Below, one piece after another: positions 4,614 through 58,680 of a stretch of 58,680 bases of DNA. Below the pieces are notes generated by a model that was not told the origin of the DNA, ran no database searches, and saw only the letters and a list, made by a program, of their open reading frames with translations. The translations under genes were made by a program, and so were the position numbers. How positions within the stretch are numbered: position 1 is the first letter of the stretch; every line of letters starts with the position of its first letter. The DNA lies in assembly GCA_027064005.1 (NCBI GenBank), contig JAMOQM010000030.1, positions 1 to 58,680 of the forward strand. Reading direction: 5' to 3'. The stretch is from Candidatus Cloacimonadota bacterium. GTDB taxonomy: Bacteria > Cloacimonadota > Cloacimonadia > Cloacimonadales > JAMOQM01.

Positions 4614-5540
4614 TTATTTTGATTGCAGATATTCTATCGCACTCAAAGCGGCAATAGTTCCATCCGAAACAGCTGTTGTAACCTGTCTAAATTTCTTTTG
4701 AATAACATCTCCAGCCGCAAAAACGCCATCGACATTAGTTTTCATATTTGAATCGACAATTATCTCATTTCGTTCATTAACACTAATTTCATCTTTAAAT
4801 TTATCAACATTTGGAATATATCCAATATAAATGAAAACACCATCTGTAGTAATTTCTTTAATCTCAGCAGTATTTTTATCTTGATATTTAACACCGGAAA
4901 GATGATTCTCTCCCAAAAATCCTTTCACGTCTGCGTTAAGGATAAATGATATTTTTTCATTATTTGTTGCTTCATAAATGGCTTTTTCGTGTGCTTGAAA
5001 ATTATCAAATTGATGCAAAATAGTTATTGATTTCACCCATTTTGTTAACGAAACAGCTTCTTCCAAAGCGGAATTTCCACCACCAATTACAACGACATCT
5101 TTATCTGTATAAAAATCTCCGTCGCAAGTAGCACAATAAGATATTCCTAAACCTTTGAATTTTTCTTCGTTGGAAACCCCAAGTGTACGAGGTTTCCCAC
5201 CGGTTGCGATAACAATTACATCGGCGGTGAAAACTTCATCATCATCAATTTCTACCATTTTTTTTGAAGATTTTAAATCCAATTTTGTGATTTCCACATT
5301 AGACTCAATTTTACACCCAAAAGATTTTGCTTGTTCTTTCATTATTTGTGAAATATTGCGTCCGCTATCTTCTAAAACTCCGGGATAATTAGCAACAGCG
5401 TGAGTTAAAACCATCTGTCCGCCAATTGATCCTTCGTTAATAATCAAAGTTTTTAAATTAGCTCTGGAGAGGTAAATTCCGGCGGTTAATCCTGCCGGAC
5501 CACCACCGAGAACGATTGCATCAAAGTGAGTTACATCCAT
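4614..5540 (-). CDS. trxB: Thioredoxin-disulfide reductase family flavoprotein (NADPH motif absent)
   Basis: 308 aa. FAD fold VLGGGPAG, redox centre ISYCATCDG, second dinucleotide fold GGGNSALEEA. The position of the HRRxxxR NADPH motif reads HQFDNFQA (nt 4992-5015). Confidence 0.85.
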   Translation of the reverse strand: MDVTHFDAIVLGGGPAGLTAGIYLSRANLKTLIINEGSIGGQMVLTHAVANYPGVLEDSGRNISQIMKEQAKSFGCKIESNVEITKLDLKSSKKMVEIDDDEVFTADVIVIATGGKPRTLGVSNEEKFKGLGISYCATCDGDFYTDKDVVVIGGGNSALEEAVSLTKWVKSITILHQFDNFQAHEKAIYEATNNEKISFILNADVKGFLGENHLSGVKYQDKNTAEIKEITTDGVFIYIGYIPNVDKFKDEISVNERNEIIVDSNMKTNVDGVFAAGDVIQKKFRQVTTAVSDGTIAALSAIEYLQSK

Positions 5541-5551
5541 TTTAACTCCCG

Positions 5552-5896
5552 TTATTTTGCAAAATACTCATCTAAAATTGTTTTAACTTGTTTTTTATTT
5601 TGAATACTGGTTGTTGCTTTAACCGCTTCACCATTTTTATAATAAAAGGTGAAAGGTAATCCCATAAATGTTCTAGCTAAAGGATGATTTCGAATAACGT
5701 GTGCGTGAGGAGCATCAAATTCCATATCATAGAATTTTACGTGCGGATATTTTTCTTCAAGATTTTCCATAATATCATAAACAGGTAAACACATTGGTCC
5801 CATTCTTCCACAGCAAACCATTACATTTTCATTGTTATTGATAATCTCATTAAATTGTTCTTCACTTTCAATATGTTTTAAATTTGTTCTTAACAT
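5552..5896 (-). CDS. Thioredoxin-fold protein with atypical active-site region
   Basis: 114 aa, Trx-like length and layout, stop 11 nt upstream of the trxB start. The active-site region reads VCCGRMGPMC instead of WCGPC. Confidence 0.6.
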   Translation of the reverse strand: MLRTNLKHIESEEQFNEIINNNENVMVCCGRMGPMCLPVYDIMENLEEKYPHVKFYDMEFDAPHAHVIRNHPLARTFMGLPFTFYYKNGEAVKATTSIQNKKQVKTILDEYFAK

Positions 5897-46577: not shown

Positions 46578-46594
46578 TTGCAAATTATTTGCAA
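46578..46594. promoter_or_regulatory. Perfect 17-bp palindrome ttgcaaat-t-atttgcaa (candidate operator upstream of prxU)
   Basis: 8-1-8 perfect inverted repeat 77 nt upstream of the prxU ATG. The right arm TTGCAA plus 17 nt plus GATATT could be the -35/-10 elements. Confidence 0.45.
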
Positions 46595-46670
46595 GTGTAG
46601 TCATAAACTTTGATATTAAATTATTAGCAATTTATAAGCTAAAATTATGTCATTAAAAAAGGAGATAACT

Positions 46671-47282
46671 ATGATTAAGATTGGTAAAAAGGCACCTGAT
46701 TTTACAGCTCCGGCTTATTTTGATAACAAGTTCGGTCAGGTTAAACTTTCGGATTATATCGGAAAGTGGGTTGTATTATGTTTTTATCCCGGAGATTTCA
46801 CATTTGTTTGAGCAACCGAAGTTTCTGCAGTTGCAGAAAGAAATCTTGAGTTTGAAAAACTTGGAGTACAAGTACTTTCGGTTAGTGTAAACAGCGTCTT
46901 TGTTCATAAAATGTGGAACGAAAATGAACTGTCAAAAATGGTGGACGGCGGAATTCCATTTCCAATGTTAACAGATGGTGGCGGAACAATCGGAACAATG
47001 TACGGCGTTTATGATGAAGATGCCGGTGTTGAAATGAGAGGAAGATTCTTAATTGATCCGGACGGAATTGTGCAAGGTTATGAGGTTTTAGCACCGTCGG
47101 TAGGAAGAAATGTAGATGAAACCGTTAGACAAATAAAAGCTTTTCAGTTGGTTAGGAAATCAAAAGGAACCGAAGTAACGCCTTCCGGTTGGGAACCTGG
47201 TAAACTTACTTTGAAGCCGGGTCCTGAATTAGTCGGGAATGTTTGGAAAGTTTGGAAACCAAATATGAATTATAACAAATAA
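46671..47282 (+). CDS. prxU: Selenocysteine-containing peroxiredoxin (AhpC/Prx1 family, PrxU-like); UGA-Sec at codon 47
   Basis: ATG 46671 with the SD aggag. A single in-frame TGA at 46809-46811 falls in [14 protein letters not shown], the peroxidatic Cys position of the FVCPTE motif. The frame continues into the track ORF 46911..47282. 203 aa in total, with a SECIS-like hairpin 10 nt downstream of the TGA. Confidence 0.8.
46822..46839 (+). promoter_or_regulatory. Bacterial SECIS-like stem-loop for prxU
   Basis: tttctgc-aguu-gcagaaa: a 7-bp stem and a 4-nt loop containing G-U, beginning 10 nt after the UGA. This is comparable to the ~11-nt spacing of the E. coli fdhF SECIS. Confidence 0.55.
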
Positions 47283-47294
47283 ATCAATAAATTT

Positions 47295-47322
47295 AAAATG
47301 TGCTTTTCGGCACATTTTTTTT
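47295..47322 (+). terminator. Rho-independent terminator after prxU
   Basis: Stem atgtgc/gcacat (47298-303 / 47310-315) with loop ttttcg, followed by 8 T. Confidence 0.75.
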
Positions 47323-47434
47323 ATCAAAAAAACAACTAATCTTTTCTAAAAAATTTTCTCTCTTTGACATTTAATCTGTAATAATAAAAGTTATTCTGCG
47401 TTAATAAATTGAAAAAAAAATAAGGAGAAGTTTA

Positions 47435-54969: not shown

Positions 54970-56106
54970 ATGATTTACTTTGATAATGCTGCAACCTCTT
55001 TTCCAAAAGCTCCCGGAGTTGCGGAATCAATTTCCAAATTTATTTTAAATGATAGTGTTAATTCCGGTCGATCATCTTATCCGGCCTCACAAAGAACCGC
55101 CAGATTACTTTTCGATACTCGCGATAAATTAGCAGAATTACTAAATATTGAAGATAGTTCCGGAATTATTTTCACTGCAAATGCAACCGAATCATTAAAT
55201 ACCGTGATTTTTGGTACTTTAAATTCCGGAGATTTCGTTTTAACATCAAAAATGGAACATAATTCCGTGATGAGACCTTTAAGATATTTGGAATCAATAA
55301 ATACAATAAAATTGCTTCAATTCAATTCCAAAAAAGATTATTCTTTTGATTTGGAAGATTATAAACAAAAGTTAAAAATGAATCCTAAACTTGTCATTGT
55401 TACAGCTTGTTCAAATGTAACAGGAGCAATTTATCCTTTTTATGAAATGGCAAAATTAGCAAAGCAAAACGGAGCTTTATTTTGTTTAGATGCTTCTCAA
55501 TATATTGGAATGGACGAAATAGATGTTGAAAATTCAGAGATAGATTTTCTTTGTTTTTCCGGTCATAAAGGACTTTTAGGACCAATGGGAACCGGTGCTT
55601 TTTATATTAGGGAAGGTCTTGATATTCGTTCATTCAGATATGGAGGAACCGGAAGTAAATCTGATAAAGAATTCCAACCTGACTTTCTTCCTGACAAGTT
55701 TGAAAGCGGAACTATGAATTTGACGGGTATTTCCGGTTTGAATGCCGCCTTAGATTTCATCCAAAAAACTAAAATAAAAAATATTAGAAATAAGAAGAAA
55801 ACGCTTCTTAATTTTCTCATAAATGAATTAAAAAAAATAAAAAATATAGAATTATACTCACCTCTTGATATTGAGCATCAAATTGGTGTTTTATCGTTTA
55901 TCCCGAAAAATCTGAATATTTCAAATCTAACAAGGATTCTCGATAAAAAAGACATCGCGGTACGAATGGGTTTGCATTGTGCACCTTCAGCTCACAAAAT
56001 AATTGGTAGTTTTTCCAAAGGCGGAACGATTAGAATCAGCCCCGGATTTTTTACTACTGAAAATGAAGTTGAAGAGCTTATTAAAGTATTGCGAAATAAT
56101 ACCTAA
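54970..56106 (+). CDS. Class-V aminotransferase: cysteine desulfurase / selenocysteine lyase family protein
   Basis: 378 aa. PLP-lysine region FSGHKGLLGP, active-site Cys loop RMGLHCAPSAH, and a short N-terminus as in the selD-linked subfamily. Confidence 0.75.
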   Translation: MIYFDNAATSFPKAPGVAESISKFILNDSVNSGRSSYPASQRTARLLFDTRDKLAELLNIEDSSGIIFTANATESLNTVIFGTLNSGDFVLTSKMEHNSVMRPLRYLESINTIKLLQFNSKKDYSFDLEDYKQKLKMNPKLVIVTACSNVTGAIYPFYEMAKLAKQNGALFCLDASQYIGMDEIDVENSEIDFLCFSGHKGLLGPMGTGAFYIREGLDIRSFRYGGTGSKSDKEFQPDFLPDKFESGTMNLTGISGLNAALDFIQKTKIKNIRNKKKTLLNFLINELKKIKNIELYSPLDIEHQIGVLSFIPKNLNISNLTRILDKKDIAVRMGLHCAPSAHKIIGSFSKGGTIRISPGFFTTENEVEELIKVLRNNT

Positions 56107-56115
56107 GGAGGAAAA

Positions 56116-57150
56116 ATGAAAACAATAGAACTTACTAAATATACACGTTTTTCCGGTTGAGGAGCTAAACTCGGACCGGGAGTCCTAAATAAAGCTTTAT
56201 GTGGTTTGGAACAGCCAAATTATCCAAATTTAATTGGAGATTATCATAATTCGGAAGATGCAGGAATTTATAGAATTAATGACGAAACCGTTATTATTCA
56301 AACCGTAGATTTCTTTCCGCCGATTGTGAACGATCCTTTTGAATACGGTCAAATTGCAGCCGCAAATTCTCTCTCTGATATTTACGCGATGGGAGCAAAA
56401 CCAATTACCGCTCTCAGCATTGTATCTTTTCCAAAAAACAAGCTGAAAATTGAATATCTTAGAGAAATTCTTGCCGGTGGAATGGATAAATTGAAAGAAG
56501 CCAAAACCGCATTAGTTGGCGGACATAGTGTTGAAGATGATGAATTGAAATACGGATTATCAGTAACCGGAATTTCTCATCCAAATGATATTTGGAAAAA
56601 TAACGGCACAAAAGAAGGCGATATCATTATTATGACTAAAAAAATTGGTACCGGAATAATTAATACTGCTCTTCGTGCCGGATTTGCTTCGGAAGAATCA
56701 TTAAAAGAATCATCAAAACAAATGCGAGAATTGAATAAATATTCAGCTGATATTGCAAAGAAAATCGGTATTTCTTCTTGTACCGACGTAACCGGATTTG
56801 GTCTTATCGGCCATCTTTATGAGATGATTGATACCACAAATCTCAGTGCAATTCTTAATTTTGATGAGATTCCAATTCTCCCCGGAACAATTGATTATGC
56901 CCAAATGGCAATGATCCCGGAAGGCTCATACAACAATCGAGAATTTAGACAATCTTCTGTTAAAAATTACGATCAATTGTCTGATTTACAAATTGATTTG
57001 CTGTTTGACCCACAAACTTCCGGTGGATTACTCTTCTCAGTAAACGAAAATAAAGCCAACCTGCTTTTAAAAGAATTAATTGAAAATGGAATTGATGCTC
57101 ATATTATCGGTGAATTTGTCAAAGGAGATAATAAAATTGAAATTAAATGA
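56116..57150 (+). CDS. selD: Selenide, water dikinase (selenophosphate synthetase) SelD, itself a selenoprotein (UGA-Sec at codon 15)
   Basis: ATG 56116 with the SD aaggagg. An in-frame TGA at 56158-56160 lies in FSG-U-GAKLGPG, the Cys/Sec of the N-terminal glycine-rich loop (E. coli GCGCK). The track ORF 56206..57150 is the remainder. The gene ends with a genuine TGA stop at 57148-50. Confidence 0.9.
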
Positions 57151-57394
57151 TTATATCCTGACGTTTGAATCAACTCATAATGCTTTGGCTACTGAAAAAA
57201 TTCTTACAAAAAAGGATATTGAAGTTGAATTAATTCCTACTCCAAGAGAAATTTCTGCGGAATGTGGATTTACGCTTATTTTGGAAAAAATGGATTTACA
57301 AACAATTAAAGATAATACAAACCCTAAAATTTTAGGTGATATTTATATCATTATAAAAGAAGGTAAAAGGAAAAAATATGAGAAAGTTGATTGA
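57137..57394 (+). CDS. DUF3343-like small protein (putative Se/S carrier-associated)
   Basis: Probable TTG start at 57137 (SD aggag 9 nt upstream; overlaps the selD stop). YILTFESTHNALATEKIL...IPTPREISAECG fits the DUF3343 pattern usually found next to yedF. Confidence 0.55.
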   Translation: MKLNDYILTFESTHNALATEKILTKKDIEVELIPTPREISAECGFTLILEKMDLQTIKDNTNPKILGDIYIIIKEGKRKKYEKVD

Positions 57395-58010
57395 TTGTCG
57401 CGGAATGGCTTGCCCTCAACCGGTAGTTGAAACTAAAAAAATGTTAGATAAAAAAGAATCTAATCAATATGAATCTATTGTTGATAATAAAGCTGCAAGA
57501 GAAAATATTAAAAAATTCTGTAAAAGTTATGAAGCCGAGATTTCACAGATTATAGAAGAAAATGGTATTTATCGAATCTTCATCGAAACAAAAAATGATT
57601 TGGTTGTTAAAAATGATAAAGACGTTGATTTTAATTTATATCAATGTGAAATTCCGGAAATAAAAACAGGTAAACAAATAAAAAAAATATTCATTTCTAC
57701 AAATCAATTAGGTGTTGGTTCTGAAGAATTAGGTAAAAATCTGATGACTGGATTTATTTATACTTTGAATGAACTTGCGGTAAAACCTGAAATGATTTTA
57801 TTTATGAATTCCGGAGTTGAATTATGCCTAAAAAATGCACCTACTTTGAAAAGTTTGACTAAACTGTCCGAAAGCGGCGTAAAGATTCTCGTTTGCGGAA
57901 CTTGTTTGGATTACTATAATTATACTGCGGATTTGGGAGTTGGAAAAATTTCCAATATGTATGAAATAACAGAAAATTTGATGGATTCTAACTTTGTTCT
58001 GAAAATTTAG
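57378..58010 (+). CDS. yedF: Selenium-metabolism protein YedF (TusA/SirA-like N-domain + DsrE-like C-domain)
   Basis: 210 aa. N-terminal LIDCRGMACPQPV (TusA CPxP motif); glycine-rich NQLGVGSEELGKNLM; C-terminal VCGTCLDYY. Adjacent to selD. Confidence 0.75.
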   Translation: MRKLIDCRGMACPQPVVETKKMLDKKESNQYESIVDNKAARENIKKFCKSYEAEISQIIEENGIYRIFIETKNDLVVKNDKDVDFNLYQCEIPEIKTGKQIKKIFISTNQLGVGSEELGKNLMTGFIYTLNELAVKPEMILFMNSGVELCLKNAPTLKSLTKLSESGVKILVCGTCLDYYNYTADLGVGKISNMYEITENLMDSNFVLKI

Positions 58011-58680
58011 CCACCGATTTTATGAATAAACAGAAAAATAAAGAAAGAATATTTAACCACTGATAACACAGATAAACACGAACGAAGTTGTAGATCAAGC
58101 AGCTTGCTTGAGGTATTTTCCGATTGTACGAATTCGAAGAAAGATGATAACCTGATGATTGTCATTCCAGTGAAAAAAAATGATTGTCATTCCCGTGAAA
58201 ACGGGAATCTATTATCTTATTCGGAAAAATGACAACCGACCGGAAGACTAAAGAAAGACAAGATTTTAGCCACTGATAACACAGATGAACACGAACGGAG
58301 TTGTAGCTCAAGCAGCTTGCTTGAGGTATTTTTTCGATAGCACGAATTTGAAGAAAAACGATAACCGGATGATTGTCATTCCCGTGAAAACGGGAATCTA
58401 TTATCTTATTCGGAAAAATAACAACCGACCGGAAGACTAAAGAAAGAAAAGATTTAGCCACTGATAACACAGATGAACACGAACGGAGTTGTAGCTCAAG
58501 CAGCTTGCTTGAGGTATTTTCCGATTGTACAAATTTGAAGAAAAATGATCACCTGATGATTGTCATTCCTGTGAAAAAAAATGATTGTCATTCCCGTGAA
58601 AACGGGAATCTATTATCTTATTCGGAAAAATAACAACCGACCGGAAGACTAAAGAAAGAAAAGATTTAGCCACTGATAAC
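58011..58680. repeat. Tandem array of 188/212-bp units (at least 3 full units, truncated by the window end)
   Basis: Unit starts (agccactgataac) are at ~58055, 58268, 58456 and 58668, giving periods of 213, 188 and 212 nt. 58011-58054 looks like a truncated unit. Each unit has hairpin 1 (ctcaagca-gct-tgcttgag plus a T-run, e.g. 58307-58334) and hairpin 2 (attcccg-tgaaaa-cgggaat, e.g. 58378-58397). Long units carry an extra degenerate 25-nt copy (gtcattccNgtgaaaaaaaatgatt). Confidence 0.9.

What the first reader, a model, noticed from the sequence alone, without database searches (positions are those of the whole stretch)
46671..47282. ORF split by the track is a selenocysteine peroxiredoxin (PrxU type): UGA at the peroxidatic position plus a SECIS-like hairpin
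Reading from the ATG at 46671 (SD aggag), the frame is open to the TAA at 47280 except for one TGA at 46809-46811. The translation around it is [14 protein letters not shown], so the TGA replaces the peroxidatic Cys of the universal Prx motif FVCPTE. The rest aligns colinearly with AhpC/Prx1 ([32 protein letters not shown]). A 7-bp stem with a G-U-containing tetraloop (46822-46839) starts 10 nt after the UGA, which is the geometry of a bacterial SECIS. TGA is a real stop elsewhere in the window (for example the selD stop at 57148), so this is site-specific recoding, not a reassigned code. The usual resolving-Cys motif EVCPANW reads EVTPSGW, so the enzyme would be a 1-Sec peroxiredoxin, unless Cys37 (VVLCFYPG) takes over. 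From memory, a 203-aa Sec47 peroxiredoxin (PrxU) is known from Eubacterium acidaminophilum, so the class is not new. Automated annotation would nevertheless miss or pseudogenise this gene.
Basis: partly seen in the sequence, partly recalled or inferred. Interest (0 to 1): 0.7.

Follow-up and report, generated by a model that had tools for sequence, protein, structure and literature searches.

The report
Selenocysteine peroxiredoxin (PrxU) gene with SECIS
The ORF that gene callers split in two is one intact gene for a peroxide-destroying enzyme whose catalytic cysteine is replaced by UGA-encoded selenocysteine; it is real, but it is an ordinary member of an already curated family (PrxU).

Summary
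ATG 46671 to TAA 47282 is one 203-codon frame with a single in-frame TGA at 46809-46811 (codon 47). That TGA aligns with the peroxidatic Cys of FTFVCPTE in solved 2-Cys peroxiredoxins.

With C at position 47, the protein scores 389.7 bits on the NCBIfam equivalog NF040737 'peroxi_PrxU' (cutoff 270). All 80 closest genomic relatives (71-77% identity, many anaerobic phyla) carry TGA at the same codon. Conservation is equal before and after it (76% vs 72%).

The hairpin at 46822-46839 is kept in all 81 sequences (98.9% of cells paired). Three stem pairs show compensatory changes. Loop positions 1 and 4 also covary perfectly (AGUU or GGUC). It meets the published bacterial SECIS model and resembles E. 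coli fdhF. Five true Cys orthologues (TGT/TGC) mostly lack the stem.

TGA is a normal stop elsewhere in the window. selD in the same window is also a Sec gene. The host is a divergent Cloacimonadota-like MAG.

This copy lacks the C-terminal resolving Cys (Thr170) and the N-terminal Cys-bearing extension found in 79 of 80 relatives. Its only Cys, Cys37, is invariant across the family.

selA, selB and tRNA-Sec are not in the window. Verdict: a new member of a known kind, of low interest.

The parts
46578..46594 (.). Perfect palindrome TTGCAAAT-T-ATTTGCAA, 77 nt upstream of the start codon. Possible operator with Fur/PerR-like 7-1-7 architecture. Tentative.
   Evidence: One perfect match in the window; 0.21 matches expected by chance at up to 2 mismatches. 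Present only in same-species loci L081-L085. No functional test was done.
46660..46664 (+). Shine-Dalgarno AGGAG, 6 nt before the ATG
   Evidence: Read directly from the sequence. The alternative ATG at 46647 has no such site, and relatives align from Met at 46671.
46671..47282 (+). prxU coding sequence: 203 codons including Sec47, plus the TAA stop
   Evidence: Translation. Pfam AhpC-TSA 1e-38 plus 1-cysPrx_C. NF040737 peroxi_PrxU 389.7 bits against a cutoff of 270. PDB 5zte at 5e-50.
46779..46781 (+). Cys37 codon (TGT). The only Cys in the protein and a candidate internal resolving thiol.
   Evidence: Invariant in 80 of 80 Sec relatives and present in 12 of 13 Cys-form database proteins. Typical 2-Cys Prx have Phe at this position (alignment). 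The resolving role is inferred, not shown.
46809..46811 (+). UGA = selenocysteine 47, the peroxidatic residue (TxxU motif T44-F-V-U47)
   Evidence: Aligns to the Cp column of FTFVCPTE. TGA is at this codon in 80 of 80 relatives. TGT or TGC is at this codon in 5 verified Cys orthologues.
46822..46839 (+). SECIS hairpin: 7-bp stem UUUCUGC/GCAGAAA with loop AGUU (invariant G-U at 46830-46831)
   Evidence: 98.9% of cells are paired across 81 sequences. Compensatory changes occur at 3 stem pairs and at loop positions 1 and 4. No shuffle out of 500 reaches the observed covariation. MFE is -8.9 kcal/mol for UGA plus 39 nt.
47178..47180 (+). Thr170 codon, at the position of the resolving Cys of typical 2-Cys Prx (EVCPAGW reads EVTPSGW)
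   Evidence: Alignment to 5zte and 4fh8. In 120 homologues this position is Thr (104), Ala (11), Met (1) or Cys (2).
47295..47326 (+). Intrinsic terminator: 10-bp stem, loop TTCG, then a T-run. The gene is monocistronic.
   Evidence: Terminator scan. It begins 13 nt after the stop codon.
56117..57150 (+). selD (selenophosphate synthetase), itself Sec-encoding (TGA 56159-56161, codon 15). Supporting evidence that the host decodes Sec.
   Evidence: Translation FSG*GAKLGPG. TIGR00476 369.9 bits against a cutoff of 125 with C at the TGA.

Best explanation
This is a single, intact, monocistronic gene for a selenocysteine peroxiredoxin of the PrxU family.

Translation. It starts at ATG 46671. At UGA 46809-46811 the ribosome does not terminate. 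The hairpin 10 nt downstream (46822-46839), which presents an invariant G-U on a covarying stem, recruits SelB-GTP-Sec-tRNA(Sec). Selenocysteine is inserted as residue 47. Translation then continues to TAA 47280.

Catalysis. The product has the AhpC/Prx1-type thioredoxin fold. Its active site is Pro40, Thr44, Sec47 and Arg123. The selenolate attacks H2O2 or an organic hydroperoxide and becomes a selenenic acid.

Recycling. The C-terminal resolving Cys is absent (Thr170), and this copy also lacks the N-terminal Cys-bearing tail of most relatives. The selenenic acid is therefore most likely recycled in one of two ways: directly by a thioredoxin-type reductant, or via a selenenylsulfide with the invariant Cys37.

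Shown here: the gene structure, the position of the UGA, family membership, conservation of the UGA and SECIS, and the site-specific nature of the recoding.
Inferred: actual Sec insertion in this organism, peroxidase activity, the identity of the reductant, and the resolving step.
For: - Frame and TGA position.
- The TGA aligns to the peroxidatic Cys of solved 2-Cys Prx, best E = 4.6e-50.
- Pfam AhpC-TSA plus 1-cysPrx_C.
- NCBIfam equivalog NF040737 peroxi_PrxU, 389.7 bits against a cutoff of 270.
- 80 of 80 closest relatives from many phyla have TGA at the same codon within the motif [13 protein letters not shown].
- Identity of the window residues to those relatives is 75.7% before the TGA and 72.3% after it. 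P40, T44, R123, R146 and C37 are invariant.
- The hairpin is conserved with compensatory changes at synonymous sites: columns 21-30 are GC 53, AU 25, UA 3 with none broken; columns 18-33 are UA 58, CG 11, AU 9, GC 1; loop positions 1 and 4 are AU 50, GC 31.
- It fits the published bSECIS model: loop 3-9 nt, stem 4-16 bp, G in the first two loop positions followed by G or U, 16-37 nt from the UGA, MFE at or below -7.5 kcal/mol (PMC13188914).
- It resembles the E. coli fdhF element, UGA + 11 nt + GGUUGCA-GGUC-UGCACC.
- In five Cys orthologues verified at DNA level, 3, 5, 4, 7 and 5 of 7 stem pairs are kept. In Sec forms, 75 of 81 keep all 7.
- The gene is identical in five independent assemblies.
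- TGA terminates 6 of 41 long ORFs in the window.
- selD in the same window is also Sec-encoding, and YedF, a Se/S-carrier protein and a cysteine desulfurase family protein (below the SclA selenocysteine-lyase cutoff) lie beside it.
- Cloacimonetes are reported to have their own tRNA-Sec type (PMC5330540).
- There is no SD before the ATG of the 123-aa fragment.
Against: - No selA, selB or tRNA-Sec is present in the 58.7-kb window, and the rest of the genome could not be reached.
- The hairpin alone is not thermodynamically exceptional: z = +0.63 for the 71-nt region and -7.3 kcal/mol for the bare 18-mer.
- The invariance of the loop G-U is confounded by a conserved Val codon, which the Cys forms also have.
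- This copy departs from family-invariant residues (D74N, A169V, T141A). It also lacks the N-terminal extension that 79 of 80 relatives carry, so a somewhat altered function cannot be excluded.
- There is no expression, selenium or activity data.
Confidence: 0.93

Rival explanations
1. The gene is a genuine PrxU selenoprotein gene by descent, but it is not expressed as a full-length protein here because the organism has lost (or lacks) the Sec-insertion machinery. It would be a recent relic that terminates at codon 47.
For: selA, selB and tRNA-Sec are not in the window. This copy shows a few substitutions at otherwise invariant columns.
Against: - A second Sec gene, selD, is in the same window. 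It has an intact frame and scores 370 bits on TIGR00476. A Sec-dependent SelD is pointless without the machinery.
- The SECIS stem is perfect, 7 of 7 pairs.
- Conservation downstream of the TGA equals that upstream.
- There is no polymorphism in five assemblies.
- The phylum is reported to have tRNA-Sec.
Confidence: 0.04
2. It is a pseudogene: a Cys-type peroxiredoxin inactivated by a TGT/TGC-to-TGA nonsense mutation, or by an assembly or sequencing error.
For: Gene callers split it into 54-aa and 123-aa pieces. TGC to TGA is a single-base change.
Against: - TGA is at this codon in 80 of 80 closest relatives across phyla.
- A covarying hairpin follows it.
- The frame downstream is undecayed.
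- The sequence is identical in five independent assemblies.
- A curated PrxU model matches above its cutoff.
Confidence: 0.015
3. The organism uses a reassigned genetic code in which TGA is sense (Trp in table 4, Gly in table 25), so residue 47 would be Trp or Gly.
For: The window is about 30% G+C. Public pipelines translated 103 of 120 homologues with W and one with G at this position.
Against: - TGA ends 6 of 41 long ORFs. One is selD, which aligns to the SelD profile up to residue 340 of 344, 4 residues before that stop.
- The only in-frame TGAs found inside recognisable genes fall on the catalytic Cys/Sec columns of two known selenoprotein families.
- Trp or Gly at the peroxidatic position would abolish catalysis.
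- Verified orthologues have Cys there.
Confidence: 0.01
4. There are two separate small genes (54 aa and 123 aa), as in the gene-call track.
For: The mechanical ORF list and public gene calls.
Against: - The split falls in the middle of one thioredoxin-fold domain. Both pieces hit the same Pfam family.
- There is no SD before ATG 46911.
- Residues 48-80, which lie between the two pieces, are as conserved as the rest.
Confidence: 0.005

Closest known systems
PrxU, the selenocysteine peroxiredoxin of Eubacterium (Peptoclostridium) acidaminophilum (Söhling et al. 2001, Biol Chem 382:979; cited in PMC13188914, PMC9312934). NCBIfam equivalog NF040737 'peroxi_PrxU'.
   Same: - Sec at the peroxidatic position in a TxxU motif.
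- AhpC/Prx1-type sequence with no C-terminal resolving Cys.
- Scores 389.7 bits on the family model (cutoff 270).
- Short form of 203 residues with Sec at 47. The prototype's length and Sec position are from my memory; the paper is not held.
   Different: - The host is a Cloacimonadota-like MAG, not a Clostridium-group Firmicute.
- A few substitutions at family-invariant columns, such as D74N.
- No biochemical data exist for this copy.
Long-form seleno-peroxiredoxins, for example Clostridium sticklandii CLOST_2406 (Sec84 of 240 aa; PMC3091704) and 79 of the 80 closest genomic relatives
   Same: The core is 71-77% identical. The UGA codon position, the SECIS hairpin and the invariant Cys37 equivalent are the same.
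   Different: They carry an N-terminal extension of about 37 residues with a conserved GC[AS]RPTGGPVGE motif (profile positions 1-34 of NF040737). The window copy has none: a stop lies 11 codons upstream of Met1, and no such motif occurs in any frame.
Typical 2-Cys peroxiredoxins (AhpC/Prx1 subfamily: Arabidopsis BAS1 5zte, human Prx2 1qmv, Salmonella AhpC 1yep)
   Same: - Colinear over about 185 residues, with E down to 4.6e-50.
- Active site PxxxTxx(C/U) plus Arg.
- C-terminal 1-cysPrx_C region.
   Different: - Sec instead of Cys at the peroxidatic site.
- ATE instead of PTE after it.
- Thr170 instead of the resolving Cys.
- Cys instead of Phe at position -10.
- Scores below the AhpC equivalog cutoff (174.6 against 272).
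Cys-containing PrxU orthologues (for example Peptoniphilus 'thioredoxin-dependent peroxiredoxin' P0088, Desulfoferula mesophila P0060)
   Same: 65-71% identical. They share the FYPGDFTFV-x-[AG]TE motif, mostly the same Cys37, and Thr at the resolving-Cys position.
   Different: They have TGT or TGC instead of TGA. The downstream stem is degraded in 4 of 5 verified cases.
E. coli fdhF SECIS
   Same: - Lies in the coding region immediately 3' of the UGA.
- A short apical hairpin starts 10-11 nt after the UGA.
- The loop is xGUx (GGUC in fdhF and in 31 PrxU relatives; AGUU here).
- The fdhF sequence was verified in 5419 of 5426 E. coli genomes.
   Different: - No bulged U in the 5' arm.
- 17 nt rather than 18 nt between the UGA and the loop.
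- No extended lower stem is evident.
- SelB specificity is unknown.

Membership tests
Peroxiredoxin superfamily (Pfam PF00578 AhpC-TSA) | Thioredoxin-fold AhpC-TSA domain above Pfam's gathering score | tested here: met
   132.4 bits against a cutoff of 26, residues 4-135. 1-cysPrx_C scores 27.5 against 21.1.
Peroxiredoxin superfamily (Pfam PF00578 AhpC-TSA) | Active-site signature PxxxTxx(C/U) plus the conserved Arg | tested here: met
   P40, T44, U47 (TGA) and R123 are all invariant in 80 relatives and align to the Prx motif in 5zte and 4fh8.
Typical 2-Cys Prx (AhpC/Prx1 mechanism) | Resolving Cys in the C-terminal EVCPAGW motif | tested here: not met
   The motif reads EVTPSGW, with Thr170. 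This position is Thr or Ala in 115 of the 120 homologues retrieved. The AhpC equivalog TIGR03137 scores 174.6, below its cutoff of 272.
PrxU (NCBIfam NF040737, selenocysteine peroxiredoxin) | Whole-protein score above the curated equivalog cutoff | tested here: met
   389.7 bits against 270. Protein residues 1-198 match profile positions 35-232 of 233.
PrxU (NCBIfam NF040737, selenocysteine peroxiredoxin) | UGA (Sec) at the peroxidatic position, conserved among orthologues, with Cys orthologues existing | tested here: met
   TGA is codon 47. TGA is at this codon in 80 of 80 relatives. Five orthologues have TGT or TGC.
PrxU (NCBIfam NF040737, selenocysteine peroxiredoxin) | N-terminal ~34-residue segment of the family profile (GC[AS]RP motif) | tested here: not met
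   Absent: a stop lies 11 codons upstream of Met1 and the motif is in no frame. It is probably not defining, since short forms make up about 14% of homologues. The prototype is also short, from memory.
PrxU (NCBIfam NF040737, selenocysteine peroxiredoxin) | Selenium actually incorporated; thioredoxin-dependent peroxidase activity | not testable with these tools
   Needs 75Se labelling, mass spectrometry and enzyme assays.
Bacterial SECIS element (consensus model of Zhang & Gladyshev, as given in PMC13188914 Fig. 2 legend) | Stem-loop in the coding region just 3' of the UGA, with a 3-9 nt apical loop and a 4-16 bp upper stem | tested here: met
   7-bp stem and 4-nt loop at 46822-39.
Bacterial SECIS element (consensus model of Zhang & Gladyshev, as given in PMC13188914 Fig. 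2 legend) | G in one of the first two loop positions, usually followed by G or U, with flanking N1/N2 able to pair | tested here: met
   The loop is A-G-U-U. G and U are invariant in 81 sequences. Positions 1 and 4 are A-U in 50 and G-C in 31, with no exceptions.
Bacterial SECIS element (consensus model of Zhang & Gladyshev, as given in PMC13188914 Fig. 2 legend) | 16-37 nt between the UGA and the apical loop; MFE at or below -7.5 kcal/mol | tested here: met
   17 nt (46812-46828). MFE is -8.9 kcal/mol for UGA plus 39 nt. The bare 18-mer gives -7.3, so the energy criterion is met only narrowly.
Bacterial SECIS element (consensus model of Zhang & Gladyshev, as given in PMC13188914 Fig. 2 legend) | Structure maintained by compensatory change and tied to the UGA | tested here: met
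   98.9% of cells are paired. 81 cells have changes on both sides, against 22.5 ± 3.4 in shuffles. Slid controls give 36-71% paired. Cys forms keep 3-5 of 7 pairs in 4 of 5 cases.
Bacterial SECIS element (consensus model of Zhang & Gladyshev, as given in PMC13188914 Fig. 2 legend) | Binds SelB and directs Sec insertion | not testable with these tools
   Needs a binding or reporter assay.
Sec-decoding trait of the host | selD present | tested here: met
   selD at 56117-57150 scores 369.9 bits on TIGR00476 and is itself Sec-encoding.
Sec-decoding trait of the host | selA, selB and tRNA-Sec present in the genome | not testable with these tools
   None is in the 58.7-kb window: ARAGORN found 0 tRNAs and Pfam on all long ORFs found neither protein. 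Only phylum-level literature support exists (PMC5330540).

The most novel reading that the evidence does not exclude
Short-form PrxU enzymes such as this one have neither the C-terminal resolving Cys of 2-Cys Prx nor the N-terminal GC[AS]RP Cys-tail of the long forms. They may recycle the selenenic acid through an intramolecular selenenylsulfide with the family-invariant Cys37, which sits 10 residues upstream on strand beta-3. To my knowledge that resolving geometry has not been described for any AhpC/Prx1-type peroxiredoxin. In the long forms the N-terminal tail Cys could be an additional, built-in shuttle thiol. Nothing here excludes this, and nothing beyond conservation supports it.
Probability: 0.25. 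Interest if true: 0.45.

Novelty: new member of a known kind. Interest (0 to 1): 0.2.

Why it matters
The practical value is in annotation.

- The gene is split into two fragments in public gene calls. 103 of 120 database homologues are stored with Trp at the catalytic position. Functional and selenoproteome surveys of MAGs will therefore miscount this antioxidant enzyme.
- The finding adds a selenoprotein pair (PrxU and Sec-SelD) to a divergent Cloacimonadota-like lineage of strict anaerobes. That fits the known enrichment of Sec-Prx in anaerobes.
- The 81-sequence SECIS alignment covaries perfectly at synonymous sites, and the GU is presented on an A-U or G-C closing pair. It is a clean natural data set for modelling bacterial SECIS elements.

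It does not change what is known about the enzyme class.

Tried and rejected
- Single-sequence folding of 46800-46870 gave no significant stability (z = +0.63). I did not use thermodynamics as evidence and relied on covariation.
- Rfam at gathering thresholds found nothing in the window.
- ARAGORN found no tRNA, including tRNA-Sec.
- Pfam on all long ORFs found no SelA or SelB.
- An exact 41-nt search of the GTDB representative genomes found no copy of the gene. The species is therefore not in that collection, and the best LpxB match is only 58%.
- Synteny: 80 Cloacimonadota lpxB loci (±10 kb) contain no prxU, and only one has a (Sec) selD. Gene context is not conserved and adds nothing.
- Extending beyond the left end of the window gave only a 4.5-kb contig with no Sec genes.
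- The original PrxU paper is not held. The prototype's 203 aa and Sec47 figures therefore rest on memory.
- Literature searches gave no biochemical data on the resolving step.
- The upstream palindrome was not found upstream of prxU in other lineages, so a regulatory role stays speculative.
- Structure prediction was not run. The tool returns no coordinates, so the Cys37-Sec47 distance could not be read. Fold assignment was already unambiguous from sequence (E about 1e-50).
- Pseudogene, reassigned code and two-gene readings were considered and rejected (see rival explanations).
Full report
OBSERVATION

AGGAG at 46660-46664 precedes ATG 46671 by 6 nt. The frame runs to TAA 47280-47282 with one interruption, TGA at 46809-46811, which is codon 47 of 203. 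The mechanical ORF list shows the two pieces, 46647-46811 (54 aa) and 46911-47282 (123 aa). Public gene calls on five independent assemblies of the same organism split the gene in exactly this way, and both pieces hit AhpC-TSA. The ATG of the 123-aa piece has no Shine-Dalgarno sequence. A 10-bp intrinsic terminator follows at 47295-47318, so the gene is monocistronic.

WHAT THE PROTEIN IS

With C substituted at position 47, the protein matches Pfam AhpC-TSA (1e-38), Redoxin and 1-cysPrx_C. It also matches solved typical 2-Cys peroxiredoxins down to E = 4.6e-50. In those alignments the TGA falls on the peroxidatic Cys column of FTFVCPTE, and EVTPSGW (Thr170) replaces the resolving-Cys motif EVCPAGW.

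Against NCBIfam the best hit is the equivalog NF040737 'peroxi_PrxU, thioredoxin-dependent peroxiredoxin', at 389.7 bits against a cutoff of 270. AhpC (TIGR03137) stays below its cutoff. Residues 1-198 match profile positions 35-232, so this copy lacks the first ~34 profile positions.

COMPARATIVE EVIDENCE FOR RECODING

A scan of one genome per GTDB species returned at least 587 relatives. The 80 best are 71-77% identical and come from many groups: Desulfobacterota, Spirochaetota, Caldithrix, Nitrospirota, Cloacimonadota, Clostridia and others. All 80 have TGA at the same codon within [13 protein letters not shown].

The window's residues are identical to those of the relatives at 75.7% of positions before the TGA and 72.3% after it. 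P40, T44, R123, R146 and C37 are invariant. This excludes decay downstream of a nonsense mutation.

The gene is base-for-base identical in five assemblies from different sources, which excludes a sequencing error.

True Cys orthologues exist. Five were checked at DNA level and have TGT or TGC. This gives the classical Sec/Cys pair.

In the large protein database, 103 of 120 homologues carry W and one carries G at this position. These are artefacts of table-4 and table-25 gene calling, not biology.

THE SECIS

The hairpin UUUCUGC-AGUU-GCAGAAA (46822-46839) starts 10 nt after the UGA. On its own it is unremarkable: z = +0.63 for the 71-nt region and -7.3 kcal/mol for the bare 18-mer.

Across the 81 sequences, 98.9% of cells are paired.
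- The pair at alignment columns 21-30 is GC in 53, AU in 25 and UA in 3, with none broken. Both columns are synonymous third positions of Ser and Ala codons.
- Columns 18-33 are UA 58, CG 11, AU 9 and GC 1. The AU state couples a synonymous Val/Ile change to a Glu-to-Asp change.
- No shuffle out of 500 reaches the observed covariation, and slid controls give 36-71% pairing.
- Loop positions 1 and 4 also covary without exception: AGUU in 50 and GGUC in 31. Functionally, an invariant GU is presented on a further A-U or G-C pair.

This fits the published bacterial SECIS model: loop 3-9 nt, stem 4-16 bp, G in the first two loop positions followed by G or U with pairable flanks, 16-37 nt from the UGA, and MFE at or below -7.5 kcal/mol (PMC13188914). 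Here the values are a 4-nt loop, 7 bp, 17 nt and -8.9 kcal/mol for UGA plus 39 nt.

It also resembles the E. coli fdhF element, UGA + 11 nt + GGUUGCA-GGUC-UGCACC. I verified that sequence in 5419 of 5426 E. coli genomes.

As a control, Cys-form orthologues keep only 3, 5, 4, 7 and 5 of the 7 pairs. Among Sec forms, 75 of 81 keep all 7. The stem is therefore not forced by the protein sequence and tracks the UGA. One caveat remains: the invariant loop G-U is also the first two bases of a conserved Val codon.

SITE-SPECIFIC RECODING, NOT A REASSIGNED CODE

TGA ends 6 of 41 long ORFs. One is selD, whose profile match reaches residue 340 of 344, 4 residues before that stop.

A scan for ORF pairs joined by one TGA gave only two cases inside recognisable genes: prxU and selD. 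selD (ATG 56117) has TGA at 56159-56161 in FSG-U-GAKLGPG, the known Sec/Cys position, and is followed by a small hairpin.

selD sits in a selenium-utilisation cluster: a cysteine desulfurase family protein (below the SclA selenocysteine-lyase cutoff) at 54970-56106, selD, a Se/S-carrier protein at 57080-57394, and YedF at 57378-58010.

HOST

The window matches MAG GCA_053940605.1 and several metagenome assemblies. It is about 30% G+C and encodes LpxB. The best LpxB relatives, at 58% or less, are Cloacimonadota MAGs. This points to a divergent member of, or neighbour to, that phylum. A 'Cloacimonetes type' tRNA-Sec is described in the literature (PMC5330540).

selA, selB and tRNA-Sec are not in the window, and the rest of the genome could not be reached. 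This is the one untested link.

MECHANISM

Shown here:
- the gene structure;
- the position of the UGA;
- the active-site residues;
- the conserved SECIS;
- family membership.

Inferred from established knowledge of bacterial Sec insertion and Prx catalysis:
- SelB-GTP-Sec-tRNA(Sec) binds the hairpin and decodes UGA47.
- The Sec47 selenolate, activated by Thr44 and Arg123 under Pro40, reduces peroxide and becomes a selenenic acid.
- A thiol then recycles it.

Thr170 replaces the C-terminal resolving Cys. This copy also lacks the ~37-residue N-terminal extension with the conserved GC[AS]RPTGGPVGE motif that 79 of 80 relatives carry. That leaves two candidates for recycling. One is direct attack by a thioredoxin-type reductant. 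A Trx-like and TrxB-like pair lies at 4614-5896, unlinked to prxU. The other is the single, invariant Cys37. I cannot discriminate between these.

COMPARISON WITH WHAT IS KNOWN, AND NOVELTY

Sec-containing peroxiredoxin with the TxxU motif is one of the experimentally established prokaryotic selenoprotein families (Söhling et al. 2001, cited in PMC13188914 and PMC9312934). It is abundant in metagenomes (PMC1088965) and is found in many anaerobes (PMC1794560). C. sticklandii has the long form, Sec84 of 240 aa (PMC3091704). NCBI curates an equivalog model for it.

The window's gene is therefore a new member of a known kind. It is a short-form PrxU like the prototype, in a lineage where it had only been called as fragments.

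The claim that annotation would miss it is true for Prodigal-type calls but not in principle for pipelines that use NF040737.

VERDICT

The finding is real, correctly interpreted and ordinary. Interest is 0.2. The only open biological question it touches is how Sec-Prx enzymes without a canonical resolving Cys are recycled, in particular the roles of Cys37 and the N-terminal Cys tail.

Noticed in passing
window 56117-57150 (TGA 56159-56161): selD is itself a selenoprotein gene: MKTIELTKYTRFSG-U-GAKLGPG. Gene callers start it at TTG 56206 and lose the N-terminus. A small hairpin GGAC-CGGGA-GUCC follows at 56173-56185.
   Followed up: partly
window 54970-58010: A selenium-utilisation cluster: a cysteine desulfurase family protein (TIGR01977; below the SclA cutoff), selD, a Se/S-carrier (PF11823) ORF that overlaps the selD end, and YedF (TIGR03527).
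   Followed up: partly
window 46578-46594: Perfect 8-1-8 palindrome TTGCAAAT-T-ATTTGCAA, 77 nt upstream of prxU. It overlaps a weak -35-like TTGCAA. The architecture resembles Fur/PerR-family 7-1-7 boxes. It is unique in the window and seen only in same-species loci.
   Followed up: partly
loci L001-L080 (upstream of the prxU core); proteins P0001-P0120: 79 of 80 closest PrxU relatives have an N-terminal extension of about 37 residues with a conserved Cys motif (x-G-C-[AS]-R-P-T-G-G-P-V-G-E). It occurs in both Sec and Cys forms. Its function is unknown to me; it may be a tail-borne resolving or shuttle thiol. The window copy lacks it.
   Followed up: partly
proteins P0001-P0120: 103 of 120 database homologues are stored with Trp, one with Gly and one with Ser at the Sec position. 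The Trp and Gly entries look like systematic mistranslation from table-4/25 gene calling on short contigs.
   Followed up: yes
window 58048-58680: Non-coding direct repeats of about 190-215 nt (3 copies, 87-100% identical). Each contains the hairpin TTCCCGTGAAAACGGGAA. The window and the NCBI contig end in them. TRF reported nothing, but the repeat finder did.
   Followed up: partly
window 4614-5896 (- strand): A thioredoxin-reductase-like gene (308 aa; TIGR01292 334 bits, just under the 343 cutoff). It is preceded by a 114-aa weakly thioredoxin-like ORF with an atypical CGRMGPMC in place of WCGPC. Together they are a possible reductant pair for PrxU, but they are unlinked, about 40 kb away.
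   Followed up: partly
window 46890-46892, 47091-47093, 47175-47177: The window's PrxU departs from residues invariant or nearly invariant in 80 relatives: D74N (SVDS to SVNS), T141A and A169V. The significance is unknown.
   Followed up: no
locus L171 (Logan SRR26671184 contig): One Cys-form orthologue (TGC) still has a perfect 7-bp stem, but its loop is CAUG instead of xGUx. It may be a recent Sec-to-Cys conversion with a relic SECIS.
   Followed up: no
locus L146 3929-4951: Of the 80 Cloacimonadota lpxB loci, this is the only one with selD nearby. It also has an in-frame TGA at the Sec position (TTAAG*GAKLGPG).
   Followed up: no
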